Below are positions 46,244 through 61,578 of a DNA stretch of 64,000 nt, piece by piece. Under the pieces are notes generated by a model. It searched no databases. It was not told the origin of the DNA and saw only the letters and a program-made list of their open reading frames with translations. Within the stretch, counting starts at the first letter, position 1. Each line of letters begins with the position of its first letter. The position numbers and the translations under genes were made by a program. Source of the stretch: Thalassobaculaceae bacterium (GTDB taxonomy: Bacteria; Pseudomonadota; Alphaproteobacteria; Thalassobaculales; Thalassobaculaceae); the NCBI GenBank assembly GCA_963691835.1, contig OY829383.1:3184457-3248456 (forward strand). Reading direction: 5' to 3'.

Positions 46244-46280
46244 TCCAGGGCCATTCCTGATCTTGATCCGCCGTCGTTGG

Positions 46281-48735: not shown

Positions 48736-48977
48736 TGCGACTGGTTGCTCCGAGATGTTGGTTGACCCGATGGCCGCGATCCTTTCGAACCGGCGCCGGA
48801 TTGACAAGGCCGACTGCTTTCCTGCCTGGCGGCTGCAAAGTTACAATATACTCAGAAATTGAGTGGATAGCTGCCAGGCTTTGCTGGTTGCTTGTTGGTC
48901 AGAACTACTATTAGTATCGGCTTTACAAAGACTTATGTCGAGTGGGGACTCTCGATCACTCTGGGCTCTAGGGGATT

Positions 48978-50780
48978 ATGCCGCTCGGTCGAAACTACCC
49001 TCAAGTGGGACTTATCGCAGTTACCGTGGCGGTCTTGGCCGGGATCGCCTTCACATATTTTTCGGAACGTCAGCTTCTGCGGGACCGGGAAATCAAGTCC
49101 CTGCAGATCCAGGCCGTAGAATTGACGGATGCCTTCAGGCGGTCTCTCAGGGTCACGACCGCGAACATGACAAGCGTTGCCGCCTACTTCGAGGCAAGCG
49201 ACAGCGTAGCGGAGCCCGAGTTCCATACCTTCATCGACGCATCCGGCTTCTTCTCCGAGGGTCGGCATATCCGGGCAATCGCGATCATGCCTGTTCTAAG
49301 GAATCAGGACATTGCGAGCTTCAACGAAGCGATGGCGGCGCGCACATCCGTTCGGCTGGGCCTTGGATATCCGGAGTGGTCGGGTGTGGCAGATACCGAA
49401 GCCCCGCTGACGATCCCGGCAACCTATGTGGAGTCCCCGGCTGGGCGTTCTGGCGTTGTGGGGTTCAACCTTGCACAGAGCCAGGAGCGTATGGAGGCCG
49501 CCCGGTCCGCCCGGGAAACAGGATCGATCGTAATGACAAGGCCGGTTGCCCTGTCGCAAGACGATGTCGCATCAAGCCAAAGCGTGCTTCTTGTGGCCTA
49601 TACCCCTCATGGCCGCCTGGGCTTGCGGGCCAATCTGACAGAGCGAGCCAGGCCCACGTTCATCGGTGTGGGCTACACCCCGGGCTTCCACATCGCCGAT
49701 ACTTTCAAGGACAATCCATCGGACCTGTCCGTCATGGTCGAAGACGTGACGGACGAGGGGACGTCGATCCCGATTTTTGATGGTGTCGAGCTTGAGGAAA
49801 CAACGGCTGTTGCGTCCTCGAAGATTACATTTGCAGGGCGTGATTGGCGACTGAACTTCTTCGCGCCGTCAGAGCGGTTGATGGCGACACCGGACTGGCT
49901 TCATCTGTTTCTGGTGATCAGCATCACGCTGACATTCGCGGTGGCCTTCAGCGCGCTCCGTCTCATCAACAGCGAGGCGACATTGGCCAGCCGCGTCCGC
50001 GAACGAACGGCCCAACTGGCGGATCAGAACGTCAGGCTTCAGAACGCGCAGACGGTCACGCAGGAGGCGTTGGTCAAGGCGCAGCAGGTCAACAAGATGA
50101 AGTCCGAGTTCCTTGCAACAATGTCCCATGAATTCAGAACGCCACTCAACGCGATCATCGGTTTCACCGACTTTCTGATCAATTACCGAAGCGACGCAAA
50201 CCGGGAGAAGACCGGCGAATACCTTCAGGACATCAAAACCAGTGGATATCACATGTTGGAGCTGGTCAACGAGATACTCGATGCCGCATCGCTTGAAGTG
50301 GGAAAGAGGGAGCTATCACTGGAAGAATTTGACATTTCTTCTGAGCTTCAGGAGGCCATGAACTCTCTCAGGAGCCTCAGCAATCAGAAGAAGATCACTT
50401 TGATCATGAAGAAACCGGAAACCGCGGTGGATGTGAGACTCGATAGAACCGCGATACGGCAGATCTTCCTCAACCTCCTGTCCAACGCGATCAAGTTCTC
50501 TCCTCAGTCTTCCGTGGTCGAGGCTAACATCCATGCCGAGCCGGGGCAGGTGCAGATTGAGTTTCTCGACAACGGCCCGGGAATCCCGTCAAACGCTCTG
50601 GAAAAGATCACTCTGCCGTTCACCCGGGCGGAAAACGATCCGATGCTGACGAAGGAAGGGACCGGTCTCGGTCTGTCCGTCGTCAAGGGCCTTGTGGACC
50701 TCCACGGTGGTGAGCTGACGATTCAAAACCGAGACGGTGGCGGCGCCCTTGTCCGTGTGACCCTTCCGAGTACTCTGTAA
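48978..50780 (+). CDS. Sensor histidine kinase with a periplasmic CHASE-like domain
   Basis: TM helix, a ~270-aa extracytoplasmic region, a second TM helix and a coiled coil. HisKA box SEFLATMSHEFRTPLNAIIGF and HATPase_c (NLLSNAIKF...DNGPGIP...GTGLGLSVVKGLVDLHGG). No receiver domain. Confidence 0.85.
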   Translation: MPLGRNYPQVGLIAVTVAVLAGIAFTYFSERQLLRDREIKSLQIQAVELTDAFRRSLRVTTANMTSVAAYFEASDSVAEPEFHTFIDASGFFSEGRHIRAIAIMPVLRNQDIASFNEAMAARTSVRLGLGYPEWSGVADTEAPLTIPATYVESPAGRSGVVGFNLAQSQERMEAARSARETGSIVMTRPVALSQDDVASSQSVLLVAYTPHGRLGLRANLTERARPTFIGVGYTPGFHIADTFKDNPSDLSVMVEDVTDEGTSIPIFDGVELEETTAVASSKITFAGRDWRLNFFAPSERLMATPDWLHLFLVISITLTFAVAFSALRLINSEATLASRVRERTAQLADQNVRLQNAQTVTQEALVKAQQVNKMKSEFLATMSHEFRTPLNAIIGFTDFLINYRSDANREKTGEYLQDIKTSGYHMLELVNEILDAASLEVGKRELSLEEFDISSELQEAMNSLRSLSNQKKITLIMKKPETAVDVRLDRTAIRQIFLNLLSNAIKFSPQSSVVEANIHAEPGQVQIEFLDNGPGIPSNALEKITLPFTRAENDPMLTKEGTGLGLSVVKGLVDLHGGELTIQNRDGGGALVRVTLPSTL

Positions 50781-50890
50781 GCGCTGGCCGATTGGGTCTC
50801 AAAGACCGGCAGAAACGCTGAACGAACGGCTCGGGTAGAGGGGCGGCTCCGGTACGACCAGGGCAAAGACCAGCGGCGATCCCAATCAGA

Positions 50891-51565
50891 CTACGACCCC
50901 ACCGCCGCGGCCATGATGGACTCGACGTGAACCGCCGCACAGTCGAGAACCGGGAACGCTGAGTCCTCTTCGCTATAGACCAAGGCCAGGTCCGTCCCAC
51001 CCAGTATGACCGCCTCTACACCGCTTTCCTTGATCAGTTGTTCACAAGCGGCATCAAACACGGCGCGTTGATCGTCGGTCACCGATCCGGCTGCCGCCAT
51101 CGTGACATAGGCGTCGTGAACATGATCCAGCATATCGCCTTGCGGCGGGATCACCTCGGCGGTGCGGACGCCGCCATAGAATCGGGTTTCCATGACGGTT
51201 CGGGTGCCCAGAACGCCGATCCGTTTCAGCTTTCGGGCTTCGATCGCGGCGCCAACCTCCAGCAGCATGTCGATCACGGGCAGCGGCGACGACTGCTTGA
51301 ACGCGTCGATGCAGAAGTGTCCGGCGATTGACGTAACCGCGACACAGCCGGCACCCGAGGAAACCAGGCGTTCGGTCAACCTGTTGTAAATGGCGACCTG
51401 GGCGTCGACACGGCCGTGCGCAAGATTGCCCAGCAGTGTGGGCGTATCCGCATGAACGATGGTCATGTCCAGATCTTCAGCCCTCGCGGCGAAGGCTTGG
51501 ATCAGACGCCGGTAGTAGTAGTCGGTCGCCGCGGGCCCAATACCACCGATGAGGCCGATCTGCAT
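50891..51565 (-). CDS. Aspartate/glutamate racemase family protein (second, divergent copy)
   Basis: MQIGLIGGIGPAATDYYYRRL...VAVTSIAGH...VILGGTDLAL. Start at the ATG at 51565. Confidence 0.7.
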   Translation of the reverse strand: MQIGLIGGIGPAATDYYYRRLIQAFAARAEDLDMTIVHADTPTLLGNLAHGRVDAQVAIYNRLTERLVSSGAGCVAVTSIAGHFCIDAFKQSSPLPVIDMLLEVGAAIEARKLKRIGVLGTRTVMETRFYGGVRTAEVIPPQGDMLDHVHDAYVTMAAAGSVTDDQRAVFDAACEQLIKESGVEAVILGGTDLALVYSEEDSAFPVLDCAAVHVESIMAAAVGS

Positions 51566-51694
51566 GCTGAGTTCCTTCCGGGATTTGAGCCTGAAGCGTG
51601 ATCGCGCCAACTGTCATCCGCGGGCATGGAGAACGCAAGAGAGCCCGCGTCGTGTCGCCCGAACCGCCGCACGGATGACTGTAGTAGTAAAGGC

Positions 51695-51718
51695 AAGTAA
51701 TTGGTCGGGGAGAGAGGA
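51695..51718. repeat. Distal att-type direct repeat (copy of the tRNA-Pro 3' end)
   Basis: aagtaattggtcggggagagagga. 19 nt (51700-51718) are identical to 61500-61518, and 23 of 24 nt match when extended to 51695/61495. Confidence 0.85.
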
Positions 51719-51826
51719 GCCGATAGGCCTTCATAAAACACAAGCGAAATCAGTATATTGCGCGTGAAGCAGTCAGTGTGTGTAGCACGCTGGTGTAGCA
51801 CCATCAATAGTCAGAACAAGCGACTT

Positions 51827-54049
51827 CTATACCTGAACTGGGATTTCGAGTGTAGGCCGGAGCGGCTCAAGCTGGGTTGCATATGCCCGAACAATTTGAT
51901 CGTATAGGCCCGTTACACCGCGGGCCTTCACGCTTACAATTAGAGCGTATGGCAGCGTTGCATCTGGAGCGAAATTGCGTCCCTCCAGCCGAGCATTGTA
52001 ATGCAGATCAAATACTGGATTTCTTAGAGACCGGCCCCGCATCCTTTTGGTAGCATGGAGGCAGTTTTCCCATTTCCAAGCATCACGTCGCAACTCGTCT
52101 TCAGTCGCTCCAGATTGAGCCGATCCAAAAAACGATGTCGTATTCGGGTGAAGTTGGTCGTCCCTTGAGAATTTTTCATCATGTGGACGGAATGCGATCT
52201 CAAGCCCTGATTGAGTATAGTTTCCGGGATGATGGGGGTCGGTTTGTGATTTGTAGCAAACAGTAGCCTTAATATTCACCATGCTACTAATTTGTGCCGG
52301 AGGCATGGGCACCTTTACTCTGACGTATTGGGCAGGCGATATTTCACCTTGATAAACTACTCGATACTCGTCATCAGCACACAGAACAATATCGTTTAAG
52401 TCTTGTGCGCAACGCCCCCAGCCGACCTCATGTAGGTCAAGGTCACTGGTCTCTGCCATATGAACAAGAAGCGCACGAATTGCCAGGTGTCCCAAGTCAG
52501 CGCCGAAATGCGCTCTAACACCAGTGCCCATTCTCAACACGCTGGGGGTAGCGAATGATGTGCCAGCTGTTGTGGTTAGCGTGGGGCTAGTTTCTGGGCC
52601 TAGAACAATGAATGGGCGTGCGAGGGAACCCCCAAAACCTACAAGATCGGGCTTTACTAGACCCGGGCTGCGTCCCGGTCCCACAGAGCTGTATGAGGCG
52701 CGCACCCAATTCGCATCGGTGGTATCGCACGCTCCGATCGCAAGAGCGTTTACGCAATCTGAGGGTACTTGAACCCTGTTCAGCCCAGTAGCTGCGTCAC
52801 TTTCACCGTCATTCCCAACCGCAATCATCGCAAGTGTATGGCTGCGCGATAGTCGATCATCCAGTACAGCAGTCCAAGCGTGGACGTCGTCATCCTCTAT
52901 GGGTAGGTACGGCCCGATGCTGAGATTGATAAAGTCATACTCGTGCTCTGAGAGCACGCCTTCTATCCGTTCAAGAACTTCATACAGTTCATGAACATTC
53001 TGACCCGGGTCTTCGTCGACGACCCTGTAGTGGTCTATCGCTGCGAAGGGTCGGGGAAAGGGGTTCTGAGGGTCTAGATGCCCAAAAAGTGCGGCGGATG
53101 TGACCGCTACGCCGTGTTCGAGAAGTGCAGGGCTCGCTGGCGACATACCCTCAATCTCATATGGCGTCACCCATTGAGTAATGGGATGTTCGTCGGGTAT
53201 TCCACCGTCAAAAATCGCGACGCGGGTTTGATCTGATATGGGAGGTTCATCGGGAAGCGTCGGACTTGTCGTTGGAATGGCTACCGTCCGAACAGTTGGG
53301 CGGAGCACTCGCAAATCTGGCATTCTCCTCAAGGCGCGAACTGACGAGAATGTAGCAATTTCTTCAGCTTGCTCTGAAGGCCCATCTATTTCAATGAAAC
53401 ACAAGCCTCTCGCATAGAACCGTCGCCCGAAGTCTCGACTTATCCCGCGAGCTTCGAGAAACCGGCCAAATGCGTCTAGCAGTTCGATCTCGCCCTCAAT
53501 TCCATTAGCATGGAGAACGACCTCCATCGCTAGTGTGCCCTCGTCTGGCAGGCCTCCTTTGATCTTTGCACGTGGATTAGGAGCCGAGATTTCCTCGATA
53601 GAAACGAGTTCCTCGGCGCTCCGTCGGGTCGATGACCAGTTTGGGAGGCTCTCACTCCATCGACGAAATGCGCTGCGAGACCCGCGCGCAAACAGTTCGG
53701 TGCTTACTGCCTCAGAAGGCACACGATCCCGTGAGCGCTTCTGGGGCGTCACTTTACGTGGACGACTGCCGACAACATCCATCCCAACATCGCGAAGCAG
53801 TTCCATTGGAAAGTATGACTTCGCGATGTATTCGGGGTTTAGGGTCAAAGAAAGGATTGCTTTATCATGGGGGCAGGCATCGTCTGGCAGTTGGTCCAAA
53901 GAGCCAACGGCGGTGGTTAGCATTGGTGTTAGCCGAGTTCGGGCCTCGCCAAATGTATAAGGAGCCAGCTTGGGCCCGCCTCCAGAACGAACTGTTACCG
54001 GTTCCGTAAGTCGTTCGCCTCTGCCAAGAAGGAAGTTCTGTTTCGCCAT
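51827..54049 (-). CDS. S8 (subtilisin-family) serine peptidase with large N- and C-terminal extra domains; IetS-like candidate
   Basis: 740 aa. Catalytic-triad motifs occur in subtilase order: RVAIFDGGI (Asp), LEHGVAVTSAALFG (His), IAVGNDGE (oxyanion Asn) and TAGTSFATPSV (Ser). No signal peptide. Starts 7 nt after the AAA+ ATPase stop. Confidence 0.8.
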   Translation of the reverse strand: MAKQNFLLGRGERLTEPVTVRSGGGPKLAPYTFGEARTRLTPMLTTAVGSLDQLPDDACPHDKAILSLTLNPEYIAKSYFPMELLRDVGMDVVGSRPRKVTPQKRSRDRVPSEAVSTELFARGSRSAFRRWSESLPNWSSTRRSAEELVSIEEISAPNPRAKIKGGLPDEGTLAMEVVLHANGIEGEIELLDAFGRFLEARGISRDFGRRFYARGLCFIEIDGPSEQAEEIATFSSVRALRRMPDLRVLRPTVRTVAIPTTSPTLPDEPPISDQTRVAIFDGGIPDEHPITQWVTPYEIEGMSPASPALLEHGVAVTSAALFGHLDPQNPFPRPFAAIDHYRVVDEDPGQNVHELYEVLERIEGVLSEHEYDFINLSIGPYLPIEDDDVHAWTAVLDDRLSRSHTLAMIAVGNDGESDAATGLNRVQVPSDCVNALAIGACDTTDANWVRASYSSVGPGRSPGLVKPDLVGFGGSLARPFIVLGPETSPTLTTTAGTSFATPSVLRMGTGVRAHFGADLGHLAIRALLVHMAETSDLDLHEVGWGRCAQDLNDIVLCADDEYRVVYQGEISPAQYVRVKVPMPPAQISSMVNIKATVCYKSQTDPHHPGNYTQSGLEIAFRPHDEKFSRDDQLHPNTTSFFGSAQSGATEDELRRDAWKWENCLHATKRMRGRSLRNPVFDLHYNARLEGRNFAPDATLPYALIVSVKARGVTGLYDQIVRAYATQLEPLRPTLEIPVQV

Positions 54050-54056
54050 CGATAAG

Positions 54057-55160
54057 TCAGCTTTCGGCAGGGTGAGCCTTGACGTGCTCCCTTATTGTGT
54101 CGCGAGCAACGCCAGTAAGCTCATGCGCTCTGCGCTGTGATGTGAGACCGGACTGAACAAGCTGGACTGCCATTCTAATGCGATCTGATTTTGAAAGTGA
54201 TTCTCCTGATAGTAGCGAAGATAGATGGTCGTTTAAACCCTTCCCATTCAGCGCAGCAGAACGGCGGGCCCTATTTAATGTCCGCTCCACGTCGCTAAAT
54301 GACAGCCCACCGAAGGCGACGGACAAAACGTCCGACCAATCGTCTGCGTTTTTGGTAAATGGATCGAGCTGCGACTTGATGAAAATCTGTGCTGCTTCCT
54401 GAGAAGGAAGATTGAACTCTACCAACTCCTCAAATCGCCTCCAAATTGCCGGATCAAGAAGTTCAGCATGATTAGTTGCGGCTATAAGAATGCCACTTGA
54501 GGGCCAGTCATCTAGTTGCTGAAGTAAAACCGTTACGAGGCGCTTGAGTTCTCCTATTTCTCCGCCGTCATCACGGCGTTTTGCTATCGCATCCAGTTCA
54601 TCTAGAAGCAAAATCCCGTCAATAGATTTTGCGTAATCAAGTACGTGACGAAGATTTGAGCCGGTTCGTCCCAGATAACTGCTCATTACTGCGGAAAGAT
54701 CGAGTATCAGTAAGGGGCGCTCAAGTTCACGGGCCAACCACCGGGCAGCCATAGTTTTGCCAACACCCGGGGGGCCAGTGAACAGAACTGTCCGAGTTGG
54801 CTCCAAGCCAACATCTGAAAGCGCCTTTGTGCTAGCGCGTTCTTCCATCAGACGCTCAAGTACTCCGCGTACCTTCTCGTCAAAAACAGGTTCGTGGGGT
54901 AGCTCAGGTGTTTCTTCAATACGTATCAGTTGAAAGCGCGTATCGGTGTCCACTGGTACGGGCAGCTCGGTGTTTCGACGCAAAGGTGATGAACGGGTTG
55001 GACGCTTCCTCAATAGCTCAACTAGAGCCGTGGATAGAGCCGCGCTCTCCGTGCGCTTTGCGACACGATGCAAAAAGGTCTGAACGTCCTGAGGCCGTCC
55101 GGATAGTGCTATCCTAGCCAGATGGACGAAATTATCTTCAATATCAGATTTATCGGCCAT
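54057..55160 (-). CDS. AAA+ ATPase (classic-clade AAA domain); IetA-like candidate
   Basis: 367 aa. Walker A FTGPPGVGKT, Walker B ILLLDELD, sensor-1 IAATNHAELLD and Arg finger AIWRRFE. The ~130-aa N-terminal domain is unknown. The C-terminal tail RAHELTGVARDTIREHV looks HTH-like. Confidence 0.85.
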   Translation of the reverse strand: MADKSDIEDNFVHLARIALSGRPQDVQTFLHRVAKRTESAALSTALVELLRKRPTRSSPLRRNTELPVPVDTDTRFQLIRIEETPELPHEPVFDEKVRGVLERLMEERASTKALSDVGLEPTRTVLFTGPPGVGKTMAARWLARELERPLLILDLSAVMSSYLGRTGSNLRHVLDYAKSIDGILLLDELDAIAKRRDDGGEIGELKRLVTVLLQQLDDWPSSGILIAATNHAELLDPAIWRRFEELVEFNLPSQEAAQIFIKSQLDPFTKNADDWSDVLSVAFGGLSFSDVERTLNRARRSAALNGKGLNDHLSSLLSGESLSKSDRIRMAVQLVQSGLTSQRRAHELTGVARDTIREHVKAHPAES

Positions 55161-55306
55161 GTTAGGCTTCGCATCCCCTTTAACGAGGGAATCATTGAAT
55201 CATGGTGTGGAAGAAAATTCAATAAGAAGATGGAAAAATCGTCCATTGGCTACGGGTGGTAGCCATTGATAGTGCCTGCTCGGGCTGTCGCTCTCGCCCG
55301 GTGACG

Positions 55307-55324
55307 TGTGCAACTCGTTGCACA
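55307..55324. promoter_or_regulatory. Perfect 8+8 palindrome between the orphan gene and the ATPase gene
   Basis: tgtgcaac-tc-gttgcaca lies 3 nt beyond the stop of the 476-aa ORF, inside the 167-bp spacer upstream of the ATPase gene. A second inverted repeat, tggctac-gggtg-gtagcca, is at 55247-55265. Confidence 0.35.
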
Positions 55325-55327
55325 AAA

Positions 55328-56758
55328 TCACCGGAACTGGCGGCGATCGACCCCCTCAAGGGCGGCGGTTAATGCTGATCCATAGGGTTCAGCAAGAATG
55401 TATCGAGGTTCTCTTGTGCGCTGGTCAGGTCGGGTGAGAACCAAAATACCATCACACAAGAGCTGGATGATCATTTGATCGATCCGATCGTCGCCGGTCG
55501 GAGAAATTCCCCCATTCATCAACAAGAGAAGCAGAACTCGTTCAACGGCGAATGGGTTGCCTGTTCCTGCGCGGGCGACTGCAGCAATCGCTGAACTGTA
55601 GAGATGTAATGGGTTGTCGAGGCGGAGGCTTACGTCTGGAAGCGCCGACAGCAGTCGTTCGAGACGCTCTCGTGCGTCATTGCGAAGGAAATCGAGCATA
55701 GTGACCAATCCGTCGAAAGAAGTGGCAAACCGGTTCTGGGTCGCCCTACTGCCAAATATTTGGCGGACATTCCTCAAATACCGAACTTCGAACCTCAATC
55801 GGTCATATTCCTTGGCGTATACAGCTATTTCGACGTACCGGTTGTTTGTGGTTGCGATGACGGAGATTGCATTCCTCAACTGACGCCAACGGCCACGCCC
55901 GGGCTCACGATAAGGGCGGGCCGGTGGCAAGTCGTAGTCGGTAGCTAACGTGTCCTTGGATACAGCGAACAAAGCTGGGCGTAGGTGATGGACAAACGAA
56001 ATCGCATCAGGGACACGATACTCCCAAAAAACTTCACATCTGCGCATGATCCAGTTGGACCACGGCAGGTCGACTAAAGCATCAAAGTCGCCAAGCTCAG
56101 CGGCTGAACGAATGCGTTGATCGAATGGCTCAGCCAATATGCTTGGCGGGAGACCGTCTTCGCTGCTTACCGTTTCAAGCAGCTCGGAAAACCCGTTGAG
56201 AAGATTGGACAATGCGTTGACGCTAGCAGGGAAGAATGGGCGTAGGGTTCGCCATTGCTCCAGTGGAAGAAAGTTATCGGAGCCATCCAATGATAACGCA
56301 GAAAGCCGCTCTGTGATTTCCGGATGCCTAAGCAGAGTGCTTACGGCTGTAGCCTCTTCGTAAACTGTGTCATTTGGGGCGTGAGCGAGAAGCCTTGTGA
56401 GGCTCACAACGAGGTCAACCGAAGTGCGAGCGCGCTCAATCGAAACAGTTTGTCGGGCAGTGTGACGCTCTACAGAAAGGTCAACTGCCCCGGATGTGCT
56501 TAGCTTGAACGAAGCAACAGCGTCACTGTTCGTTTTAACGGATATCCGCTGCGCATTGTAGCGAGGTATCTGAAAAGGTCCGGTGCCTGCGAGAAGTTCA
56601 AGAAAACCTCGCCTTGAGGACGGAGACGAAAAGGCAATGCGCCCACTGTTGAATTGAAGGTCGATACGGTCGAATTGGGCTTCGTCTAAAGAGGGCGTTA
56701 TACCAGCTTGAAAGGGAGTGATATTCGGTCTGGGTCTATAACGGACGCGTCTTGCCAT
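55328..56758 (-). CDS. Hypothetical 476-aa protein (island cargo, no recognised family)
   Basis: Long uninterrupted ORF co-oriented with the ATPase/protease genes and of the same low-GC composition. The only motif-level hint is RYVEIAVYAKEYDRLRFEVRY, reminiscent of the Y-x-K...R-x-E pattern of Rep_trans-type initiators/relaxases. This is a weak hint. Confidence 0.65.
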   Translation of the reverse strand: MARRVRYRPRPNITPFQAGITPSLDEAQFDRIDLQFNSGRIAFSSPSSRRGFLELLAGTGPFQIPRYNAQRISVKTNSDAVASFKLSTSGAVDLSVERHTARQTVSIERARTSVDLVVSLTRLLAHAPNDTVYEEATAVSTLLRHPEITERLSALSLDGSDNFLPLEQWRTLRPFFPASVNALSNLLNGFSELLETVSSEDGLPPSILAEPFDQRIRSAAELGDFDALVDLPWSNWIMRRCEVFWEYRVPDAISFVHHLRPALFAVSKDTLATDYDLPPARPYREPGRGRWRQLRNAISVIATTNNRYVEIAVYAKEYDRLRFEVRYLRNVRQIFGSRATQNRFATSFDGLVTMLDFLRNDARERLERLLSALPDVSLRLDNPLHLYSSAIAAVARAGTGNPFAVERVLLLLLMNGGISPTGDDRIDQMIIQLLCDGILVLTRPDQRTREPRYILAEPYGSALTAALEGVDRRQFR

Positions 56759-56817
56759 TCATCCTCTCGGTTCTGCGCCTATACCCCTTGGTATCCCTCT
56801 GTAGAGTGGACGTTACC

Positions 56818-57453
56818 CTAGTGCAATCCCAGCCGAGTGACCAACCTTCTAACGGTCGTGCGCTGCCAAGTCTTGCCGGTGCTGGTTTGCACGCTGAGTT
56901 CATTTAGCGCCTGCGCTAGTGCCTCGTAGCGTGTTGCGCCATGCTGCGCGACGAGGCGCTCTAAGATGGGGGCCATCTCGCGAGCGAACGCATCCGCCGC
57001 TGCACGGTTCTCCCTCGCGCGGTCGATGCCGGTAACGCCCAAGGCCACGCCCCTTGCCTTCGCTGCCGCCAATGCTGATTTCGTTCGCGCGCTGATCAGC
57101 TCTCGCTCGTGCTCGGCGAAGGCCGCGAGCATGTGCACCATGAGCCGATTGGCATGGGGGTTATCGGTCGCTACGAAATCTACGCCGCTTTCCATTAGGC
57201 CGCTGACGAAGTGGACGTTGCGGGCGAGACGGTCGAGTTTCGCGATGACCAGTGTCGCTTTCCGGCGGCGGCACATCGAGATTGCCGCACTGAGTTCTGG
57301 GCGATCCTTACGCTTGCCGCTCTCGACCTCGGTGAAGGTCTCGATCAGGTCGCCACGGTCCACTGATACGAAACGCTCCACGGCTTCCCGCTGCGCTTCC
57401 AACCCAAGACCGGACTGGCCTTGTCGATCCGTGCTGACGCGGAAGTAGGCCAC
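56818..57453 (-). CDS. Serine recombinase (resolvase/invertase family)
   Basis: VAYFRVSTDRQGQSGLGLEAQREAV (catalytic Ser box)...LVIAKLDRLARNV...ISARTKSALAAAKARG. The start is uncertain: GTG at 57453 or TTG at 57495. The ATG at 57663 would overlap the neighbouring gene by ~100 nt. Confidence 0.8.
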   Translation of the reverse strand: MAYFRVSTDRQGQSGLGLEAQREAVERFVSVDRGDLIETFTEVESGKRKDRPELSAAISMCRRRKATLVIAKLDRLARNVHFVSGLMESGVDFVATDNPHANRLMVHMLAAFAEHERELISARTKSALAAAKARGVALGVTGIDRARENRAAADAFAREMAPILERLVAQHGATRYEALAQALNELSVQTSTGKTWQRTTVRRLVTRLGLH

Positions 57454-57559
57454 GAACCGCTTGCTGGGTAGCGTCTCTTTGCCCTCCGGTGACAAGTGGA
57501 GGACCGTTCTTTTGTCACCAGATGTCCCGTTTTCCGCTAGGGGACCGATTTTCCTGTCC

Positions 57560-58231
57560 TCAAACACGGGTGGTTGCCTGCACTTCAGTGCACCGGGGTG
57601 CACACGCGATAGCTTTGTTACTGAAGACCGGGAAACCCGTATAGCGATCCGAGTGATCCCCATACGCGTCCAGCCAGCCGTCCCGAACGAGCCACCGTTT
57701 GGGACGCTGGTAGGTGAAGACCTCGCGTATTGGCCGCTCGTGCCATCCCACGTTGAACGTCCCCGGCGAGGTGAAGAAGGTTAGGCGGTGGTAGGGCAGA
57801 TGATCGTGTACCCACCAAGCCATCTGGTTCGATGTCTCTGCCCACGGGCCATGATCGGCCAGCCACGGAACGGCGATACAGGCCGCAGCGCCCCGGTAGC
57901 CCTGCTCGTCCAGCAAGTCCCACACGTGATAGGCCGCGTTCTTCGCGTTGCTAGCGCACTTGAGCCGCCGCTGCGCGCCGAACGCGTTGAGTGCGAGAGA
58001 GCGGTAGCCGGATCGGACGATGATCGGCCCGAACGCTTCTGCGATCGGCTCTAGGATCGCTTCGCACAACTGTTGCCCGTTCTCGATGGCGAGGTCTGGG
58101 TCTACTGGGACGTTCGGCAGGCGATAGAACGCCGCAATCTCTGAATGCAGGAACTGCCGCATCTGGAAGTGCTTGGACAGACGCACCCGCCCCAAACGCT
58201 CCAGATCGGAAAACCCCCCTATGTAGTGCAT
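57560..58231 (-). CDS. Peptidase M15 (Peptidase_M15_3 / D-Ala-D-Ala carboxypeptidase-fold)-like protein, no signal peptide
   Basis: LSKHFQMRQFLHSE...LCEAILEPIAEAFGPIIVRSGYRSLALNA follows the N-terminal consensus of M15_3 peptidases as I recall it. The downstream H/D metal-ligand spacing (AAYHVWDLLD) looks atypical. Confidence 0.45.
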   Translation of the reverse strand: MHYIGGFSDLERLGRVRLSKHFQMRQFLHSEIAAFYRLPNVPVDPDLAIENGQQLCEAILEPIAEAFGPIIVRSGYRSLALNAFGAQRRLKCASNAKNAAYHVWDLLDEQGYRGAAACIAVPWLADHGPWAETSNQMAWWVHDHLPYHRLTFFTSPGTFNVGWHERPIREVFTYQRPKRWLVRDGWLDAYGDHSDRYTGFPVFSNKAIACAPRCTEVQATTRV

Positions 58232-58315
58232 TGGTTACTCCCTCAATACCCCATATGGTACCAAGGGAGCGATCTTCTGTCAAGAAAAATACAATTAAAT
58301 CAATAAGTTATTCGG

Positions 58316-59029
58316 TCACTCCAGCTTGCTCAACGCTGCCGGGATGTCGATACTTGGTCCTGCGTAGGCCGCGACGGGCAGTTTGTTGGCCCCCGCTGTC
58401 AGGTGGGGCATTCCCTTGATGTGCGTCATCGCCGTGCCGTTCACAGGCGCAATCAGCAAATCGACATTCAACGCCCGGCCCACCGCGTACAGCCCCATGA
58501 GATCGCGTGCACCGACGCCCATGGCCTGACAACCGACAAGACGAGCACCCTCCACTGTCTCCCATCCGCAGCGAATTGCATTGAACCTGCCGCGATCGAA
58601 CAGCGGATAGTTGGTGCTGTTGAGGCGGAACGCATAGTAACTCTCCAATGCGCCCTTTGCGGTCTTCGCATCGGCGCTCGTTGCCGCCGCCACCGCCGAG
58701 CCGCTAATCGCAGGTCCACCTGTGTGCATCGCGTTGCACTTGATTTTCCATCTGTTCTCAATGGCGTGTGCGAGGAGAGCATAGAACGAGACGCCAGTCT
58801 GCTCCTCCAACGGTTTGTTGAGCTTGCGGACTTCCGCCTCGGCCCATTCATCGGCCTTCGCGATGTCCGTGAACCGCCTCTGGCTCTCGCGCGTGATCTC
58901 CAGCGACTGACGCTCGTACTCGCAGTACGCGGGGAGCGCCGCTTCCGTGACTTCCGCTGCAACGGACACATTCGCCACGCCAGCAACAACCGCGAAAGCA
59001 ACCATCGCGCCCACAAGCCTTCTCGTCAT
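58316..59029 (-). CDS. Hypothetical secreted protein
   Basis: 237 aa with signal peptide MTRRLVGAMVAFAVVAGVANVSVA/AE, four Cys residues, and no recognised domain. Confidence 0.55.
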   Translation of the reverse strand: MTRRLVGAMVAFAVVAGVANVSVAAEVTEAALPAYCEYERQSLEITRESQRRFTDIAKADEWAEAEVRKLNKPLEEQTGVSFYALLAHAIENRWKIKCNAMHTGGPAISGSAVAAATSADAKTAKGALESYYAFRLNSTNYPLFDRGRFNAIRCGWETVEGARLVGCQAMGVGARDLMGLYAVGRALNVDLLIAPVNGTAMTHIKGMPHLTAGANKLPVAAYAGPSIDIPAALSKLE

Positions 59030-59155
59030 TACTGTCTCCCACCTGAGGTGTTGGTTCGAGTTGAAGGCTATACTCCCATCTTAGCCTCGGAATTTCAATC
59101 CAAAGTCGTAGAAATGTCTCGTGTCAGAAGTCATCACCAATAGGGATGCTTCGGC

Positions 59156-59506
59156 ATGGAACTTCGGGTACTCGTCGGACAAAGGACCAGGTCTTTGCGC
59201 CGCGCTGCGGGACAAACGCAGCGGGACCTTGCGGACGCGCTTGGGCGTCAGGAGGAAACGATCAGCGCGATTGAGCGGGGATTGAACCTGCCCAGCGAGG
59301 ATACGTTGATCGGGCTCAGCCGGGTGCTTGACGTTCCGGTGCACGCCTTCTTCGAGGTCGGCGACATCTCGGCCAAGGATCGTGAGAGGGAAGCGATGAT
59401 TGCCGAGGTGCTTGCCCTGTGTCGGCAACTCCCCAAACGGGATTTGGAAATCGCCCTTCGTCAGGTCGAAGCGTTCTCACCCAAGCCGCCGTCAGAGGCT
59501 CTCTGA
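59156..59506 (+). CDS. XRE-family helix-turn-helix transcriptional regulator
   Basis: GQRTRSLRRAAGQTQRDLADALGRQEETISAIERGLNLPSEDTLIGLSRVL is a canonical HTH_3 (Cro/C1) domain. It is the only plus-strand gene on the island. Confidence 0.8.
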   Translation: MELRVLVGQRTRSLRRAAGQTQRDLADALGRQEETISAIERGLNLPSEDTLIGLSRVLDVPVHAFFEVGDISAKDREREAMIAEVLALCRQLPKRDLEIALRQVEAFSPKPPSEAL

Positions 59507-59552
59507 GAGCCCTGCAGCACGTGCCCCCCATGGTCCCCTCTCCAATCGTGAT

Positions 59553-61358
59553 CTAGGGCTCTCTGCGTGCCTCGGAGGCGCTCGGGTATAGGTGCGAGAG
59601 GTCGAGGTCGGGGTACTCGATCAGCGCCACCAGCTTTGCCAGTTCATCAATCGGGTAGTCGCCACCGTACCGGCTAGCCATACCCTTGCCGTCGCTCCAC
59701 CCGAATACGTCGTCGATCTTTTCGTCCGCGCGATGGCCTGCCTCTCGAAATAGATCGGCGCGGCGGAGTGCCTGTCGGGCCGTGTGCCGGAAGGAGTGGA
59801 AGTCCACGTTGTTTCCATCAACGCCGACAGCCTTGCGGAAGGTCCGGTACAGCTTGGAGAACCGGTAGCTTGGTTTCCTGCCTTCGATCAGCATCTCCGG
59901 GAAAAGGGCGCCATTGCCGGAACGTCGGCACTGTCCAACGAACTCAAGGAAACCCAGTTTCACCAACTCGGGGTGAACCGGAACGTCCCGGATTGCGTTC
60001 CGCGTCTTCACGGACATCCATTCCTCGTCGTTGCAGATCGACAGGTATGGGGTGCCCGCGTCAGTTGCTCGCACGTCTTGTGCTCGAAGCTGACAAAGTT
60101 CGCCAGCACGGGCTCCCGTGAAAAGCCCGAGAAGGGGTAGCCAGAACCGGCCTCGTTTTGGTCGGTTGGGACCGGGCCTGTTGAACCCATACTCGTCGTT
60201 GCGGCATCCGGTGTAGAGCGGTGAATTGAATAACGCGCGGAGGTCTTCGATCTCGTAGGCGGTCCGATGCTTCCGCTTGCCATCCTTGGAGCGAGTGGGT
60301 TCGATCAACTCGAAAGGGTCGCTGGTCATCAGCTCGTGACGACGGCACCAGCGAACGAACCTTCTTAACTCCCGTTCGTAGTCGGCCCTGACCCTTTCCG
60401 AGATAGGTAGCTGACCGTCCTGTTCAGCAGCGGTTACCGCTTCGGCAAGTGATAGCTCCGGATACTTCTTGCGGCGGTTCGTTGGAAGTCTGGCGGTCGA
60501 GCGTAGGAAGGCCTCGACATCCCGAGCCTTCATTTCATCGACTTGGAAGGTGTCGCCGAAATGGCTGCGGATCACCTCGTGCCATCTGGAGACCTTCGAT
60601 GCCTGCTCATGGTCGCTGGACGAGCGTGATGCTGCCGTTTCTTGTGCGAACCGTTCGAGCGCGTCCTTGATGTTGGTGCCGGAACCTCGTCGCACGGTTC
60701 CGGATTTTCGCTCTGTCTCAAACGGATCGTCATTTCCAAACAGATGATCCCGGATCGCCTGATCCTCGCCGGTCTCCAGCGTCTGGAGATGCCGACGCTC
60801 CAGCTCCATCATCGCTTGGCGCAGAAGCTCGGTCAGATGGTCATGTTCTGGATCGCCGACATTGCCCGCATACCCATGCTCGGTAAGTAGCGCGTTTGCT
60901 ATGTCTTGAGTTGCGGCGAGTGTTCCGCCGTCGTCGGGATCGGCAAGTTGGGCCAACATAGAACGAGCATCGTCGATGGCCTCATCGAGATGTTCGGGTG
61001 TTCCCGCCCAGCGGTCTGCCAGCTCCTGCCGATACCACCGCCGCGCAAGTTCGGTCGCAGCCGAGCGGGTCAGAGGATTTAGTTCCCCGCTCTGCAATGC
61101 CTCACGGCGTGTACGCCTTAGGCGTTCTTGACGGGTCGGCGCACGTTGACGAACACGCACGCCGGGATGGTCCAACTCGAACTGCTTGCGTTCGAACTCG
61201 TCGCGCCATCTGGCAGACACTTCGTACCAAGCGCGCTCGGCCTCGGCTCGATCCTCAGTGCCGAGTGATACCCATATCTGCGACTTGCCGTAGAGGTCCC
61301 GCAGGCCACGGGGGACAGTGGCACGGTAGTACCACATCCGTGACCGCTTCCGGGTCAT
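59553..61358 (-). CDS. Tyrosine-type site-specific integrase
   Basis: C-terminal catalytic domain with GARAGELCQLR (Arg), HSFRHTARQ (H-x-x-R) and MASRYGGDY (Tyr). The long N-terminal arm-binding region WYYRATVPRGLRDLYGK is typical of alphaproteobacterial island integrases. It sits adjacent to the tRNA. The start may be 61358, 61337 or GTG at 61409. Confidence 0.85.
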   Translation of the reverse strand: MTRKRSRMWYYRATVPRGLRDLYGKSQIWVSLGTEDRAEAERAWYEVSARWRDEFERKQFELDHPGVRVRQRAPTRQERLRRTRREALQSGELNPLTRSAATELARRWYRQELADRWAGTPEHLDEAIDDARSMLAQLADPDDGGTLAATQDIANALLTEHGYAGNVGDPEHDHLTELLRQAMMELERRHLQTLETGEDQAIRDHLFGNDDPFETERKSGTVRRGSGTNIKDALERFAQETAASRSSSDHEQASKVSRWHEVIRSHFGDTFQVDEMKARDVEAFLRSTARLPTNRRKKYPELSLAEAVTAAEQDGQLPISERVRADYERELRRFVRWCRRHELMTSDPFELIEPTRSKDGKRKHRTAYEIEDLRALFNSPLYTGCRNDEYGFNRPGPNRPKRGRFWLPLLGLFTGARAGELCQLRAQDVRATDAGTPYLSICNDEEWMSVKTRNAIRDVPVHPELVKLGFLEFVGQCRRSGNGALFPEMLIEGRKPSYRFSKLYRTFRKAVGVDGNNVDFHSFRHTARQALRRADLFREAGHRADEKIDDVFGWSDGKGMASRYGGDYPIDELAKLVALIEYPDLDLSHLYPSASEARREP

Positions 61359-61494
61359 CAGTCCGGGGAATTTCGCCACGTCTTCCACGCCTCTGGTGTA
61401 GCACAGCACCAGAACACGCGCAGTCTGTAAGTGGCTGATATCGCTTGCTACCTGTCGAACCCTAAGGTTTCTGCGATGTTCACGAGGTAGCTAG

Positions 61495-61518
61495 AAGTGA
61501 TTGGTCGGGGAGAGAGGA
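61495..61518. repeat. Proximal att-type direct repeat (overlaps the 3' end of tRNA-Pro)
   Basis: aagtgattggtcggggagagagga. 61500-61518 is identical to 51700-51718 and covers the last 17 nt of the tRNA including CCA. Confidence 0.85.
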
Positions 61519-61578
61519 TTCGAACCTCCGGCCCCTGCCTCCCGAAGACAGTGCTCTACCAGGCTGAGCTACTCCCCG
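61502..61578 (-). tRNA. tRNA-Pro (anticodon CGG)
   Basis: Minus-strand sequence CGGGGAGTAGCTCAGCCTGGTAGAGCACTGTCTTCGGGAGGCAGGGGCCGGAGGTTCGAATCCTCTCTCCCCGACCA folds by hand into a cloverleaf. It has a 7-bp acceptor stem, D arm GCTC/GAGC, anticodon stem CTGTC/GGCAG with loop TTCGGGA, T loop TTCGAAT and an encoded CCA. Confidence 0.9.

What the first reader, a model, noticed from the sequence alone, without database searches (positions are those of the whole stretch)
55328..56758. 476-aa orphan protein directly upstream of, and compositionally matched to, the ATPase-protease pair
This is a long clean ORF on the same strand, 167 nt upstream of the ATPase gene and 59 nt downstream of the serine recombinase. 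It has the same low GC as the two downstream genes. I recognise no domain. The only hint is the segment RYVEIAVYAKEYDRLRFEVRYLRN, which resembles the Y-x-K...R-x-E core I associate with Rep_trans-type rolling-circle initiators and MOB_T relaxases. It could be a third component (sensor or specificity factor) of the ATPase/protease system, which would make it a three-gene variant. Alternatively it could be the replication or mobilisation function of the island. Either would be informative.
Basis: inference. Interest (0 to 1): 0.65.

Follow-up and report, generated by a model that had tools for sequence, protein, structure and literature searches.

The report
Hidden rolling-circle nickase of a defence island
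The "orphan" 476-aa gene is not a third part of the neighbouring IetAS anti-phage system; it is most likely the mobile island's own DNA-nicking replication/transfer initiator, from a previously undescribed bacterial family related to plasmid Rep_trans proteins only by 3-D fold and active-site residues.

Summary
The ORF is real: minus strand 55328-56758, 476 aa, under purifying selection, with the stated gaps and low GC. It lies in a 9.8-kb island inserted at tRNA-Pro and bounded by 19-bp direct repeats. Its downstream neighbours are the known two-gene defence system IetA/IetS.

It is not an orphan. An exhaustive HMMER search found 329 distant relatives, none matching any Pfam model. In about 46 independent loci the recurring neighbours are a small serine recombinase and a DUF6538 tyrosine integrase. 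The downstream cargo differs every time (Type III/II R-M, DRT3, PARIS, Uzume, PD-Lambda-4 and others). IetAS follows only in a near-identical copy of this same island.

A confident AlphaFold model (pLDDT 86) has as its four best PDB matches Rep_trans rolling-circle initiators, followed by a MarR-like winged helix. The family's invariant residues (D30, E242, Y314-x-K316, R322-x-E324) are colinear with the Rep_trans metal ligands and catalytic tyrosine. Sequence-profile tests are negative.

A palindrome, TGCAAY-NN-RTTGCA, is about 8-fold enriched in these loci and sits 4 nt after this gene's stop codon.

Verdict: a new bacterial branch of TBP-fold rolling-circle endonucleases, belonging to the island backbone.

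The parts
55328..56758 (-). ORF476: full coding sequence of the TBP-fold (Rep_trans-like) putative tyrosine nicking endonuclease with a C-terminal winged helix
   Evidence: ORF list; 329 relatives; AF2 model pLDDT 85.8, pTM 0.84; Foldseek top 4 PDB hits are Rep_trans initiators 4cwe/4cwc/4cij, probability 0.95-0.98
55634..56758 (-). Catalytic domain, about aa 1-375. Two beta-sheet modules (strands 28-119 and 227-327) are separated by a ~105-aa helical insertion carrying the family-specific LDGxDN motif (aa 157-162). It contains D30, E242/E246, Y314, K316, R322 and E324.
   Evidence: Secondary structure of the model; column conservation in 111 sequences; TBP-like and Inoviridae Rep hits in BFVD
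55817..55819 (-). Codon of Tyr314, the proposed catalytic nucleophile (motif III, Y-A-K)
   Evidence: Y314 and K316 invariant in 111/111. Non-significant hhalign alignments still pair Y314 with RepC Y191. Y191 is the catalytic Tyr of RepDE (PMC13107129).
55349..55621 (-). C-terminal MarR-like winged helix-turn-helix (about aa 380-470), presumed sequence-specific DNA-binding domain
   Evidence: H-H-H-E-E pattern in the model, pLDDT 87-97; many MarR-family PDB hits, probability 0.9-0.99 over ~100 residues
55308..55323 (.). Perfect 16-bp palindrome GTGCAAC-TC-GTTGCAC, 4 nt after the ORF476 stop codon; candidate binding site / origin element
   Evidence: The family-wide 14-mer TGCAAYNNRTTGCA gives 30 sites observed vs 3.8 expected. 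The site is conserved in L003.
57588..57603 (.). Second copy of the palindrome, a symmetric variant GTGCACC-GG-GGTGCAC, at the 3' end of ORF223 and upstream of the recombinase catalytic-domain coding region
   Evidence: Preserved in L003 (9156) although the surrounding 200 nt are only 66% identical.
58724..58739 (.). Third copy, GTGCATC-GC-GTTGCAC (1 mismatch), inside ORF237
   Evidence: (D15). Not conserved in L003, so the weakest of the three.
55247..55265 (-). Hairpin TGGCTAC-CACCC-GTAGCCA, about 62 nt after the stop codon in the ORF476-ietA spacer; possible terminator or nick-site hairpin (unassigned)
   Evidence: The stem is conserved in L003, with a change in the loop.
56818..57663 (-). 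Small serine recombinase (resolvase). The true start is probably internal, since the Pfam match begins at residue 71. It is the most frequent neighbour of the family.
   Evidence: PF00239 7.1e-31. A homologue lies within ~130 nt upstream in L001, L004, L006, L007, L011, L019, L021, L052 and L054, and just downstream in L010, L012 and L080.
59553..61409 (-). DUF6538-type tyrosine integrase of the island
   Evidence: PF20172 2.8e-15 and PF00589. Homologues occur in L001, L007, L009, L010, L011, L023, L026, L075, L080 and the P0007 contig.
61500..61518 (.). attL: 19-bp direct repeat ATTGGTCGGGGAGAGAGGA overlapping the 3' end of tRNA-Pro(CGG) (61502-61578, minus strand)
   Evidence: D1/D3
51700..51718 (.). 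attR: second copy of the 19-bp repeat, the distal island border
   Evidence: Homology with the L003 island ends here.
51827..55160 (-). Cargo: IetA (54057-55160) and IetS (51827-54049), a complete known two-gene defence system. Not functionally tied to ORF476 by co-occurrence.
   Evidence: PADLOC IetA 3.5e-79, IetS 2.3e-41; Pfam AAA and Peptidase_S8

Best explanation
ORF476 is a backbone gene of a ~9.8-kb integrative island (tRNA-Pro, 51700-61518). The IetAS genes are merely this island's cargo.

The protein is a previously undescribed, sequence-divergent bacterial member of the TBP-fold rolling-circle endonuclease superfamily, whose known branches are bacterial Rep_trans/PF02486 and archaeal Rep-Arvir/DUF7845.

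Proposed mechanism (inferred, not shown):
1. The DUF6538 integrase excises the island as a circle.
2. A dimer of ORF476 binds TGCAAY-NN-RTTGCA palindromes through its C-terminal MarR-like winged helix. The best copy lies 4 nt after its own stop codon.
3. The N-terminal domain nicks one strand nearby. A divalent metal is held by D30, E242 (with E246) and E324. Tyr314, assisted by Lys316, becomes covalently linked to the 5' phosphate.
4. The free 3'-OH primes rolling-circle synthesis by host enzymes.
5. This either maintains or amplifies the excised island, or produces the strand that a helper element transfers.
6. The adjacent small serine recombinase would resolve multimers.

Shown here: island borders; family membership and neighbour statistics; predicted fold; residue invariance; palindrome enrichment.
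Inferred: metal binding, nicking, covalent adduct, which protein binds the palindrome, and replication versus transfer.
For: (1) Context. In 46 non-redundant family loci the recurrent neighbours are a resolvase (11 of 93 upstream ORFs, plus downstream cases) and Phage_integrase/DUF6538 (8 and 5). Downstream ORFs are heterogeneous defence genes: Type III R-M, EcoRI MTase, PD-Lambda-4, PDC-S39, Drt3a, UzuA, AriA, DUF7380, KAP NTPase.

(2) Fold. The AF2 model built with 100 homologues has pLDDT 85.8 and pTM 0.84. The four best of 350,542 PDB chains are the only crystallised Rep_trans initiators, 4cwe, 4cwc and 4cij (E 1.2e-3 to 1.4e-2, probability 0.95-0.98). MarR-type wHTH hits follow for the C-terminus. 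BFVD gives giant-virus TBPs and an Inoviridae Rep. This is the same hit spectrum reported for the experimentally validated Rep-Arvir (PMC13107129). It also fits the TBP-like topology of Rep_trans: two 5-strand modules (PMC4797284).

(3) Active site. The invariant or near-invariant columns are D30 (102/103), E242 (110/111), E246 (E/D 110/111), Y314, K316, R322 and E324 (all 111/111). They occur in the same order and on the same predicted elements as RepC/RepDE D46 (beta1, 'SFDAM'), R140-x-D142-x3-D146 (beta6), Y191-x-K193 and R212-x-E214. In RelSt3 the equivalent D, D, E, Y and K are each required for nicking (PMC6499999).

(4) Cis element. The palindrome occurs 3 times in the island against 0.037 expected. 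Family-wide there are 30 sites against 3.8 expected, and 9 lie within 160 nt of the gene ends. Site 2 is preserved in L003 inside a 66%-identical stretch. Rep-Arvir likewise has its origin hairpin just downstream of rep.

(5) Purifying selection on ORF476.
Against: - Foldseek E-values are marginal and global TM-scores low (0.33-0.36 on the target).
- The model is a prediction, and I could not measure whether D30, E242, E324 and Y314 are close together in space.
- The window protein and its nearest full-length relative carry Ser instead of the otherwise near-invariant Asn119 of the 'NPTR' motif.
- No family member was found on an annotated plasmid or phage, which is unexpected for a bona fide replicon initiator.
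- The palindrome is absent from some loci (L009, L010, L011). Some copies lie inside resolvase coding sequence. The binding protein could instead be the recombinase or the Xre-type HTH.
- No conserved nick-site motif was found beside the palindromes.
Confidence: 0.62

Rival explanations
1. ORF476 is a mobilisation relaxase (functionally MOB_T-like) rather than a vegetative replication initiator. It nicks an oriT on the excised island so that a co-resident conjugative element, or another helper, transfers it; any replication is secondary.
For: The active-site and fold evidence is the same as for the main explanation. Rep_trans-fold enzymes are known to serve as relaxases of ICEs and IMEs (PMC6499999; PMC7563843). 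Integrase plus relaxase plus oriT is the minimal IME layout. The absence of the family from plasmids and phages fits an integrative mobilisable element better than a replicon.
Against: No coupling protein, T4SS or other conjugation gene appears among 173 neighbouring ORFs. MOB_T relaxases have an N-terminal HTH, whereas here the DNA-binding domain is C-terminal, as in pT181-type Reps and Rep-Arvir. MOB_T is described for Firmicutes and Actinobacteria, not for alphaproteobacteria.
Confidence: 0.2
2. ORF476 is a third component (sensor or specificity factor) of the IetAS defence system.
For: It is on the same strand and 167 nt upstream of ietA. Its GC3 is similarly low. The ORF476-IetA-IetS block is 95-99% identical between the window and L003, while the rest of the island is 57-94% identical. 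So the three genes share recent history in this lineage.
Against: IetA/IetS are found next to a family member only in L003, which is the same island, out of about 46 loci. About 20 of those loci have at least 1.5 kb of downstream sequence. PADLOC models IetAS as a two-gene system, and both genes here are full-length matches. ORF476 has no PADLOC hit. In other loci the family gene's GC3 follows the integrase/recombinase.
Confidence: 0.03
3. ORF476 is itself a stand-alone defence or regulatory protein: a wHTH DNA sensor fused to a nuclease-like domain. It sits in defence islands by guilt by association and has no role in island replication or transfer.
For: It is always embedded among defence genes. 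The wHTH is clear. No sequence-level homology to any Rep was found.
Against: It is the constant element while the defence genes vary. It is linked to the integrase and recombinase rather than to any particular effector. The invariant Tyr-x-Lys plus three acidic residues on a TBP-like sheet is the signature of a covalent transesterase, not of a hydrolytic effector nuclease. A cognate palindrome is conserved on the element itself.
Confidence: 0.1
4. ORF476 acts as a rolling-circle transposase-like enzyme (by analogy with IS91/ISCR) that captures or exchanges the adjacent cargo. This would explain why the variable defence genes lie next to it.
For: The cargo hotspot is immediately adjacent to the gene. 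The rep-like gene plus cargo form a compositionally and phylogenetically distinct block in this island. A palindrome sits at the gene/cargo junction.
Against: No terminal repeat or second end sequence bounds the cargo. Cargo also occurs upstream of the gene in some loci (L012, L081, L006). In most loci the gene's composition matches the backbone, not the cargo. No precedent exists for Rep_trans-fold transposases.
Confidence: 0.05

Closest known systems
Rep_trans (PF02486) rolling-circle initiators: pT181 RepC, pC221 RepD, pSTK1 Rep (PDB 4CWC, 4CWE, 4CIJ)
   Same: They are the best and only consistent full-length structural matches. They share a two-module TBP-like beta-sheet. The putative active-site residues are colinear: D on beta1, R-x-[DE]-x3-[DE] on beta6, Y-x-K, and R-x-E. 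An 'NPxK/R' motif follows beta5. Both have a separate C-terminal DNA-binding domain that would recognise a palindrome near the nick site.
   Different: No detectable sequence similarity. There is a ~105-aa helical insertion with an invariant LDGxDN motif between the two sheet modules. The Y-to-E spacing is 10 residues instead of 23. The DNA-binding domain is a true MarR-like wHTH. The family is found only in chromosomal integrative islands of (mainly) alphaproteobacterial and environmental genomes, never on annotated plasmids or phages.
Rep-Arvir (DUF7845, PF25227) of archaeal viruses and plasmids, e.g. RepSNJ2 (Wang et al. 2026, PMC13107129)
   Same: The architecture is the same: an N-terminal TBP-fold catalytic domain followed by a MarR-like wHTH. 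The relationship to Rep_trans is likewise visible only by structure. The Foldseek hit spectrum is the same (giant-virus TBPs, Inoviridae Reps). Both are encoded on integrase-bearing integrative elements. In both, the candidate origin or hairpin lies just downstream of the gene (vs 49, 52, 53, 92).
   Different: No member hits PF25227. Rep-Arvir is reported as exclusive to archaea. Motif III here is the canonical Y-x-K rather than KHYYM. There is no extra C-terminal alpha/beta domain. No experimental evidence exists here.
MOB_T relaxases (RelSt3, NicK, Orf20 of ICESt3/ICEBs1/Tn916)
   Same: Rep_trans-fold tyrosine transesterases carried by integrative elements. Mutagenesis showed that D/D/E metal ligands plus Y and K are essential, and the equivalent residues are invariant here.
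   Different: MOB_T has an N-terminal HTH and a recognisable PF02486 domain, occurs in Gram-positive bacteria, and is linked to T4SS/T4CP genes. None of these applies here.
IetAS (Gao et al. 2020 defence system; PADLOC IetA/IetS)
   Same: Physically adjacent, on the same strand, with similar GC.
   Different: IetAS is a complete two-gene system without ORF476. ORF476 relatives sit next to many other systems and never next to IetAS outside this island.

Membership tests
Rep_trans (Pfam PF02486) | Significant match to the PF02486 profile (sequence-level membership) | tested here: not met
Rep_trans (Pfam PF02486) | Crescent, TBP-like beta-sheet built of two 5-strand modules (Carr et al. 2016) | tested here: met
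   The AF2 model (pLDDT 85.8) has two strand modules, 28-119 and 227-327. The top 4 PDB hits are 4cwe, 4cwc and 4cij, probability 0.95-0.98. TBP and Inoviridae Rep hits appear in BFVD. Caveats: this is a predicted structure, E-values are marginal (1e-3 to 1e-2), and TM is 0.33-0.36.
Rep_trans (Pfam PF02486) | Catalytic tyrosine in motif III (Y-x-K; RepD Y188 / RepC Y191 / RelSt3 Y252, K254) | tested here: met
   Y314 and K316 are invariant in 111/111. They lie on the penultimate strand of the second module. Low-confidence hhalign alignments still pair them with RepC Y191/K193.
Rep_trans (Pfam PF02486) | Three acidic metal ligands in motifs N', I and IV (RepDE D46, D142, E214) | tested here: inconclusive
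   Colinear, near-invariant D30 (beta1), E242 (beta6) and E324 (R-x-E) exist.
Rep_trans (Pfam PF02486) | Metal-dependent site-specific nicking with a covalent 5'-phosphotyrosyl adduct | not testable with these tools
   Requires biochemistry.
Rep-Arvir (DUF7845, PF25227) | Match to PF25227; archaeal distribution | tested here: not met
   No Pfam hit in 100 members. Hosts are bacterial: Thalassobaculaceae, Thalassobaculum and Rhodospirillales MAGs.
Rep-Arvir (DUF7845, PF25227) | Architecture: TBP-fold catalytic domain followed by a MarR-like wHTH; origin element downstream of the gene | tested here: met
   Searches compared with PMC13107129. This shows resemblance in how it works, not family membership.
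MOB_T relaxases | N-terminal HTH plus PF02486 domain; linkage to conjugation genes (T4CP/T4SS) | tested here: not met
   The wHTH is C-terminal. No PF02486 hit. No conjugation genes among 173 neighbouring ORFs.
HUH rolling-circle Rep/relaxases | Conserved His-hydrophobic-His metal-binding motif | tested here: not met
   No conserved histidine among the invariant or near-invariant columns. No HUH-family Pfam hit.
IetAS defence system (as a third subunit) | Consistent co-occurrence of homologues with IetA/IetS pairs | tested here: not met
   IetA/IetS homologues were detected only in L003, the same island, among 50 family-bearing loci. The downstream cargo census shows no IetA/IetS.

The most novel reading that the evidence does not exclude
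ORF476 defines a third, bacterial branch of TBP-fold rolling-circle endonucleases. It would also be the hallmark gene of an unrecognised class of small tRNA-integrating 'hitcher' elements: DUF6538 integrase + small serine recombinase + this Rep + a TGCAAY-NN-RTTGCA site. These elements would replicate by rolling circle after excision and serve as exchangeable carriers of anti-phage systems in environmental alphaproteobacteria. The Rep-plus-cargo block would be swapped between related islands, with the Rep possibly contributing directly to cargo turnover.
Probability: 0.3. Interest if true: 0.8.

Novelty: new variant of a known kind. Interest (0 to 1): 0.6.

Why it matters
Many genomic islands that carry defence systems have no known means of replication or transfer. 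If this family is a rolling-circle nickase, three things follow.

1. It gives a marker gene for a whole class of defence-carrying integrative elements. At least 329 clusters at 50% identity exist, all currently annotated as 'hypothetical protein' and matching no Pfam model.

2. It extends the TBP-fold endonuclease superfamily. A divergent, archaea-only branch was added to that superfamily only in 2026. A bacterial counterpart with the same domain architecture bears on the deep evolutionary link between bacterial and archaeal replicons.

3. It warns against adding conserved neighbours to defence systems by adjacency alone. Here the neighbour belongs to the vehicle, not to the cargo.

Tried and rejected
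- Direct profile searches of ORF476 (Pfam, PADLOC, PHROGs, NCBIfam, PDB sequences) found nothing useful. The only hit, ThiI at 17.6 bits against a cutoff of 264, was dismissed as noise.
- AF2 with only 3 sequences gave an unusable model, pLDDT 37.
- The search for homologous proteins with the 100-sequence alignment was throttled by its candidate cap and returned only 4 proteins.
I replaced it with a hand-made degenerate DNA pattern for the YAK...RxRFEVR motif.
- Sequence-level proof of Rep_trans homology failed throughout: hmmsearch of the family HMM vs RepC; hhalign vs RepC alone, vs 120 close RepC relatives, and vs these plus four 23-35%-identical Rep_trans proteins. I therefore do not claim PF02486 membership.
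- tblastn of three family members against 72,556 plasmids, and of ORF476 against 50,697 phage records, found no match.
- The genome collection held only one further genome with a relative detectable by the pattern method.
- I first mapped Rep_trans motif I (D142) onto LDGxDN (aa 157-162). The model places that motif in a helical insertion, whereas R240-x-E242-x3-E246 lies on the beta6-equivalent strand, so I rejected the first mapping.
- I looked for a conserved nick-site-like flank beside the palindromes and found none.
- The simple promoter/terminator scan of 55000-57800 gave nothing above shuffled expectation.
- I considered the palindromes as a resolvase res site. This seems unlikely, because the copies are kilobases apart rather than clustered upstream of the recombinase gene. 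It is not excluded.
Full report
OBSERVATION

The ORF is present exactly as described, except that it lies on the minus strand: 55328..56758, ATG start, 476 aa. A GAGAGGA ribosome-binding-like sequence precedes the ATG. The gap to the downstream ATPase gene (54057..55160) is 167 nt, and the gap to the upstream serine-recombinase ORF (56818..57663) is 59 nt.

Composition was checked gene by gene:
- ORF476: GC3 0.52
- IetA: 0.45
- IetS: 0.48
- Recombinase, ORF223, ORF237, HTH and integrase: 0.67-0.75, like the host flanks.

ORF476 has no hit in Pfam, PADLOC, PHROGs, NCBIfam or PDB sequences.

SETTING

The ATPase/protease pair is the known two-gene defence system IetAS: PADLOC IetA 3.5e-79, IetS 2.3e-41, both near full length.

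The surrounding genes on the minus strand are a DUF6538 + Phage_integrase tyrosine integrase (59553..61409), two small ORFs (237 and 223 aa) and a resolvase-type serine recombinase. An Xre-type HTH gene lies on the plus strand. A tRNA-Pro(CGG) gene lies at 61502..61578.

A 19-bp direct repeat, ATTGGTCGGGGAGAGAGGA, overlaps the tRNA 3' end (61500-61518) and recurs at 51700-51718. This delimits a 9.8-kb island. Homology with the same island in a Thalassobaculaceae MAG (L003) stops at that repeat.

NOT AN ORPHAN

The word-indexed search found only the protein itself, a 73%-identical fragment and a 39%-identical protein. A profile of these three, run exhaustively against 1.84 billion cluster representatives, found 329 proteins at E<=1e-3 and 122 at E<=1e-10. 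Most are 420-510 aa.

None of 100 aligned members hits any Pfam family, and the profile hits no PDB sequence. Source annotations, where present, say 'hypothetical protein'.

WHO ARE ITS PARTNERS?

I collected contexts in two ways: by exact-protein look-ups, and by scanning metagenome contigs with a degenerate DNA pattern for the core motif. Of the 62 pattern hits, about 38 were confirmed as family members by HMM.

Homologues of the window's own island proteins were then sought in all loci:
- IetA/IetS occur only in L003, the same island.
- A resolvase homologue lies within ~130 nt upstream in L001, L004, L006, L007, L011, L019, L021, L052 and L054. It lies just downstream in L010, L012 and L080, and further away in several others.
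- DUF6538-type integrases occur in L001, L007, L009, L010 (twice), L011, L023, L026, L075, L080 and the P0007 contig.

A Pfam census of 93 upstream ORFs is headed by Resolvase (11), Phage_integrase (8) and DUF6538 (5).

The 80 downstream ORFs share no dominant family. They include Type III R-M (2 loci), EcoRI methylase, PD-Lambda-4, PDC-S39, Drt3a, UzuA, AriA, PDC-M45, DUF7380, DUF4238 and AAA_15. Other loci carry a HEPN-like protein, a MORC-like ATPase, a KAP NTPase, ABC-3C components and SIR2.

So ORF476 relatives are the constant element, and the defence systems beside them are interchangeable cargo.

WHAT IS THE PROTEIN?

With 100 homologues as the alignment, AlphaFold2 gave a confident model: pLDDT 85.8, pTM 0.84. 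Its parts are:
- five long strands (28-119);
- a ~105-residue helical region;
- a second strand module (227-327);
- a long helix;
- a C-terminal helix-helix-helix-strand-strand unit (383-455).

Foldseek against 350,542 PDB chains ranked 4cwe_A, 4cwc_A, 4cij_D and 4cij_B first (E 1.2e-3 to 1.4e-2, probability 0.95-0.98). These are the three crystal structures of Rep_trans rolling-circle initiators. The following hits are MarR-type winged helices aligned to about 100 residues. In the viral library the hits are TATA-binding-protein-like proteins of giant viruses and an Inoviridae Rep.

Two papers explain this pattern. Carr et al. (PMC4797284) describe the Rep_trans fold as a crescent sheet of two 5-strand modules, with TBP topology as its only structural neighbour. 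Wang et al. [quoted passage not shown] They validated that family by mutagenesis.

ACTIVE SITE

The hallmarks of the fold are three acidic metal ligands and a catalytic Tyr in a Y-x-K motif. In RepDE these are D46, D142, E214 and Y191. In RelSt3 they are D72, D177, E280, Y252 and K254, each shown to be needed for nicking.

I reconstructed pT181 RepC across the plasmid origin. Its residues lie in SFD46AM, R140-L-D142-LAF-D146, RIY191NK193 and R212-V-E214.

In the ORF476 family (111 sequences) the most conserved columns are D30 (102/103), N162, Y314, K316, R322 and E324 (all 111/111), E242 (110/111) and E246 (E/D 110/111).

| Rep_trans element | RepC | ORF476 | Location in the model |
|---|---|---|---|
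| Motif N' | SFD46AM | QFD30RI | first strand |
| After strand 5 | N117-P-N-K120 | family consensus N119-P-T-R122 | after the fifth strand |
| Motif I | R140-L-D142-LAF-D146 | R240-C-E242-VFW-E246 | first strand of module 2 |
| Motif III | I-Y191-N-K193 | V-Y314-A-K316 | penultimate strand |
| Motif IV | R212-V-E214 | R322-F-E324 | last strand |

The residues that define the Rep_trans active site are therefore the ones this family never changes, in the same order and on the expected structural elements.

LIMITS OF THAT INFERENCE

- Foldseek E-values are marginal and global TM-scores low (0.33-0.36). This is plausibly due to the helical insertion and the extra domain.
- I could not inspect coordinates to confirm that the residues cluster in space.
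- The window protein and its closest full-length relative have Ser in place of the near-invariant Asn119.

For these reasons I treat the protein as 'works like / same superfamily as Rep_trans', not as a PF02486 member.

A CIS ELEMENT

Four nucleotides after the stop codon lies a perfect palindrome, GTGCAAC-TC-GTTGCAC (55308-55323). Two further copies lie in the island: 58724 (1 mismatch) and 57588 (a symmetric 2-mismatch variant). No others at <=2 mismatches occur in the 64-kb window. Simulated islands give 0.037 copies on average, and 0 of 300 reach three.

The idea generalises. In 46 non-redundant family loci (308 kb), TGCAAY-NN-RTTGCA at <=1 mismatch occurs 30 times (16 perfect) against 3.8 expected (maximum 8 in 30 simulations). 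Seven loci have a copy within 160 nt downstream of the family gene and two have one within 100 nt upstream. Several elements carry 2-4 copies.

Site 2 is preserved in L003 although its surroundings are only 66% identical.

Caveats:
- Some loci lack the motif.
- About five copies lie inside resolvase coding sequence, where they encode A-A-T-G-C-T.
- No conserved flank that could be a nick site was found.
- Nothing shows which protein binds.

The most economical reading is a binding site for the dimeric wHTH of the family protein. This is analogous to the ICRIII palindrome recognised by the pT181 Rep DNA-binding domain and to the origin hairpin downstream of repSNJ2.

THE COMPOSITIONAL CLUE

The low GC shared by ORF476 and IetAS is real, but it is not a family property. 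In L007, L009, L010, L023, L052 and L055 the family gene's GC3 equals that of the integrase/recombinase, while the cargo is often lower.

Identity between the window and L003 varies along the island:
- integrase: 82-91%
- HTH/ORF237 region: below 60%, with indels
- ORF223: 66-82%
- recombinase: 91-94%
- ORF476-IetA-IetS: 95-99%

The island is therefore a mosaic, and in this lineage the rep-like gene and its cargo were probably acquired together from a lower-GC relative.

MECHANISM AND ALTERNATIVES

Best-supported model (confidence about 0.6). After integrase-mediated excision, ORF476 binds its palindromes and nicks one strand using Tyr314 and a metal held by D30, E242 and E324. This initiates rolling-circle synthesis of the island circle. 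The neighbouring recombinase resolves multimers.

Whether the outcome is maintenance or amplification, as shown for ICEBs1 NicK (my recollection of that literature, not checked here), or transfer via a helper, cannot be decided. The relaxase variant gets about 0.2. For it: the family is absent from plasmids and phages. Against it: no conjugation genes nearby, and the domain order is that of a Rep rather than MOB_T.

A stand-alone defence or regulator role (about 0.1), a rolling-circle transposase-like role in cargo capture (about 0.05) and the IetAS-subunit idea (about 0.03) are less likely, for the reasons given under the rival explanations.

NOVELTY

- No paper in the searchable library mentions DUF6538.
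- Searches on Rep_trans with islands and defence returned nothing relevant.
- Recent literature treats TBP-fold rolling-circle endonucleases as bacterial Rep_trans plus archaea-specific Rep-Arvir.

This family is bacterial, matches neither Pfam model, has the Rep-Arvir-like architecture with canonical Y-x-K chemistry, carries a unique insertion with an invariant LDGxDN motif, and marks a distinct class of defence-carrying integrative islands. I rate it a new variant of a known kind, with interest 0.6.

Noticed in passing
window 51700-61518 vs L003 4250-15160: The island is a mosaic. Identity to the Thalassobaculaceae MAG copy is 82-91% for the integrase, below 60% with indels for the HTH/ORF237 region, 66-82% for ORF223, 91-94% for the recombinase, and 95-99% for ORF476-IetA-IetS. 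A GC3 step (0.67-0.75 down to 0.45-0.52) falls exactly between the recombinase and ORF476. This suggests module exchange between related islands.
   Followed up: partly
window 57560-58231 (-), ORF223: A 223-aa ORF with no Pfam hit but a PHROG 'endolysin' N-terminal match (phrog_894, 6.8e-11). It contains an SGYRS...H..D-like stretch reminiscent of M15 peptidases (my reading, untested). Homologues sit in the same position upstream of the recombinase in L001, L003 and L006. Its 3' end overlaps the long recombinase ORF and contains palindrome site 2.
   Followed up: partly
window 58316-59029 (-), ORF237: A 237-aa ORF with a signal-peptide-like N-terminus (MTRRLVGAMVAFAVVAGVANVSVAAE). Weak homologues occur in L003 and L007. 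A VasI-domain protein occupies the equivalent position in L009. Its function in the island is unknown.
   Followed up: no
window 56818-57663 (-): The recombinase ORF as listed (281 aa) is probably over-extended at its 5' end. The Resolvase domain starts at residue 71 and orthologues are 190-245 aa, so the true start is likely internal, which would leave palindrome site 2 upstream of the gene.
   Followed up: no
window 59553-61409 (-) and L010 4741-6516, 13966-15699: DUF6538-type tyrosine integrases (570-620 aa) are the regular integrase of these islands. L010 carries two of them 9 kb apart, suggesting tandem islands at one site. No paper in the searchable library mentions DUF6538.
   Followed up: partly
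L003 15058-21428 vs window 45000-51700: Beyond the distal att repeat the two genomes are unrelated, although the tRNA-side flank (polyprenyl synthase) is conserved at 77%. Either a second element lies in tandem in one genome, or the region is rearranged.
   Followed up: no
L026 5211, L070 1200 (also probably L052 3173, L055 2525, L001 4861): Copies of TGCAACGGGTTGCA lie inside resolvase coding sequence, where they encode A-A-T-G-C-T. It is unclear whether this is coincidence, a coding constraint that inflates the motif count, or a functional site embedded in the gene.
   Followed up: partly
window 54057-55160 (-), IetA residues 326-365: The IetA homologue has a weak C-terminal HTH_psq match (E 0.0016, below the Pfam cutoff), hinting at a DNA-binding tail on the ATPase.
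   Followed up: no
window 59492-59576: A 30-nt imperfect inverted repeat (77% complementary, 25-nt spacer) lies between the convergent 3' ends of the HTH gene and the integrase gene. It is probably a bidirectional terminator.
   Followed up: no
ORF476 residues 119-122 (window ~56393-56404): The window protein and its 39%-identical relative P0003 have S-L-T-R and S-F-A-R where 109 of 111 family members have N-P-(T/S)-R. This corresponds to RepC N117-P-N-K120. The consequence for activity is unknown.
   Followed up: partly
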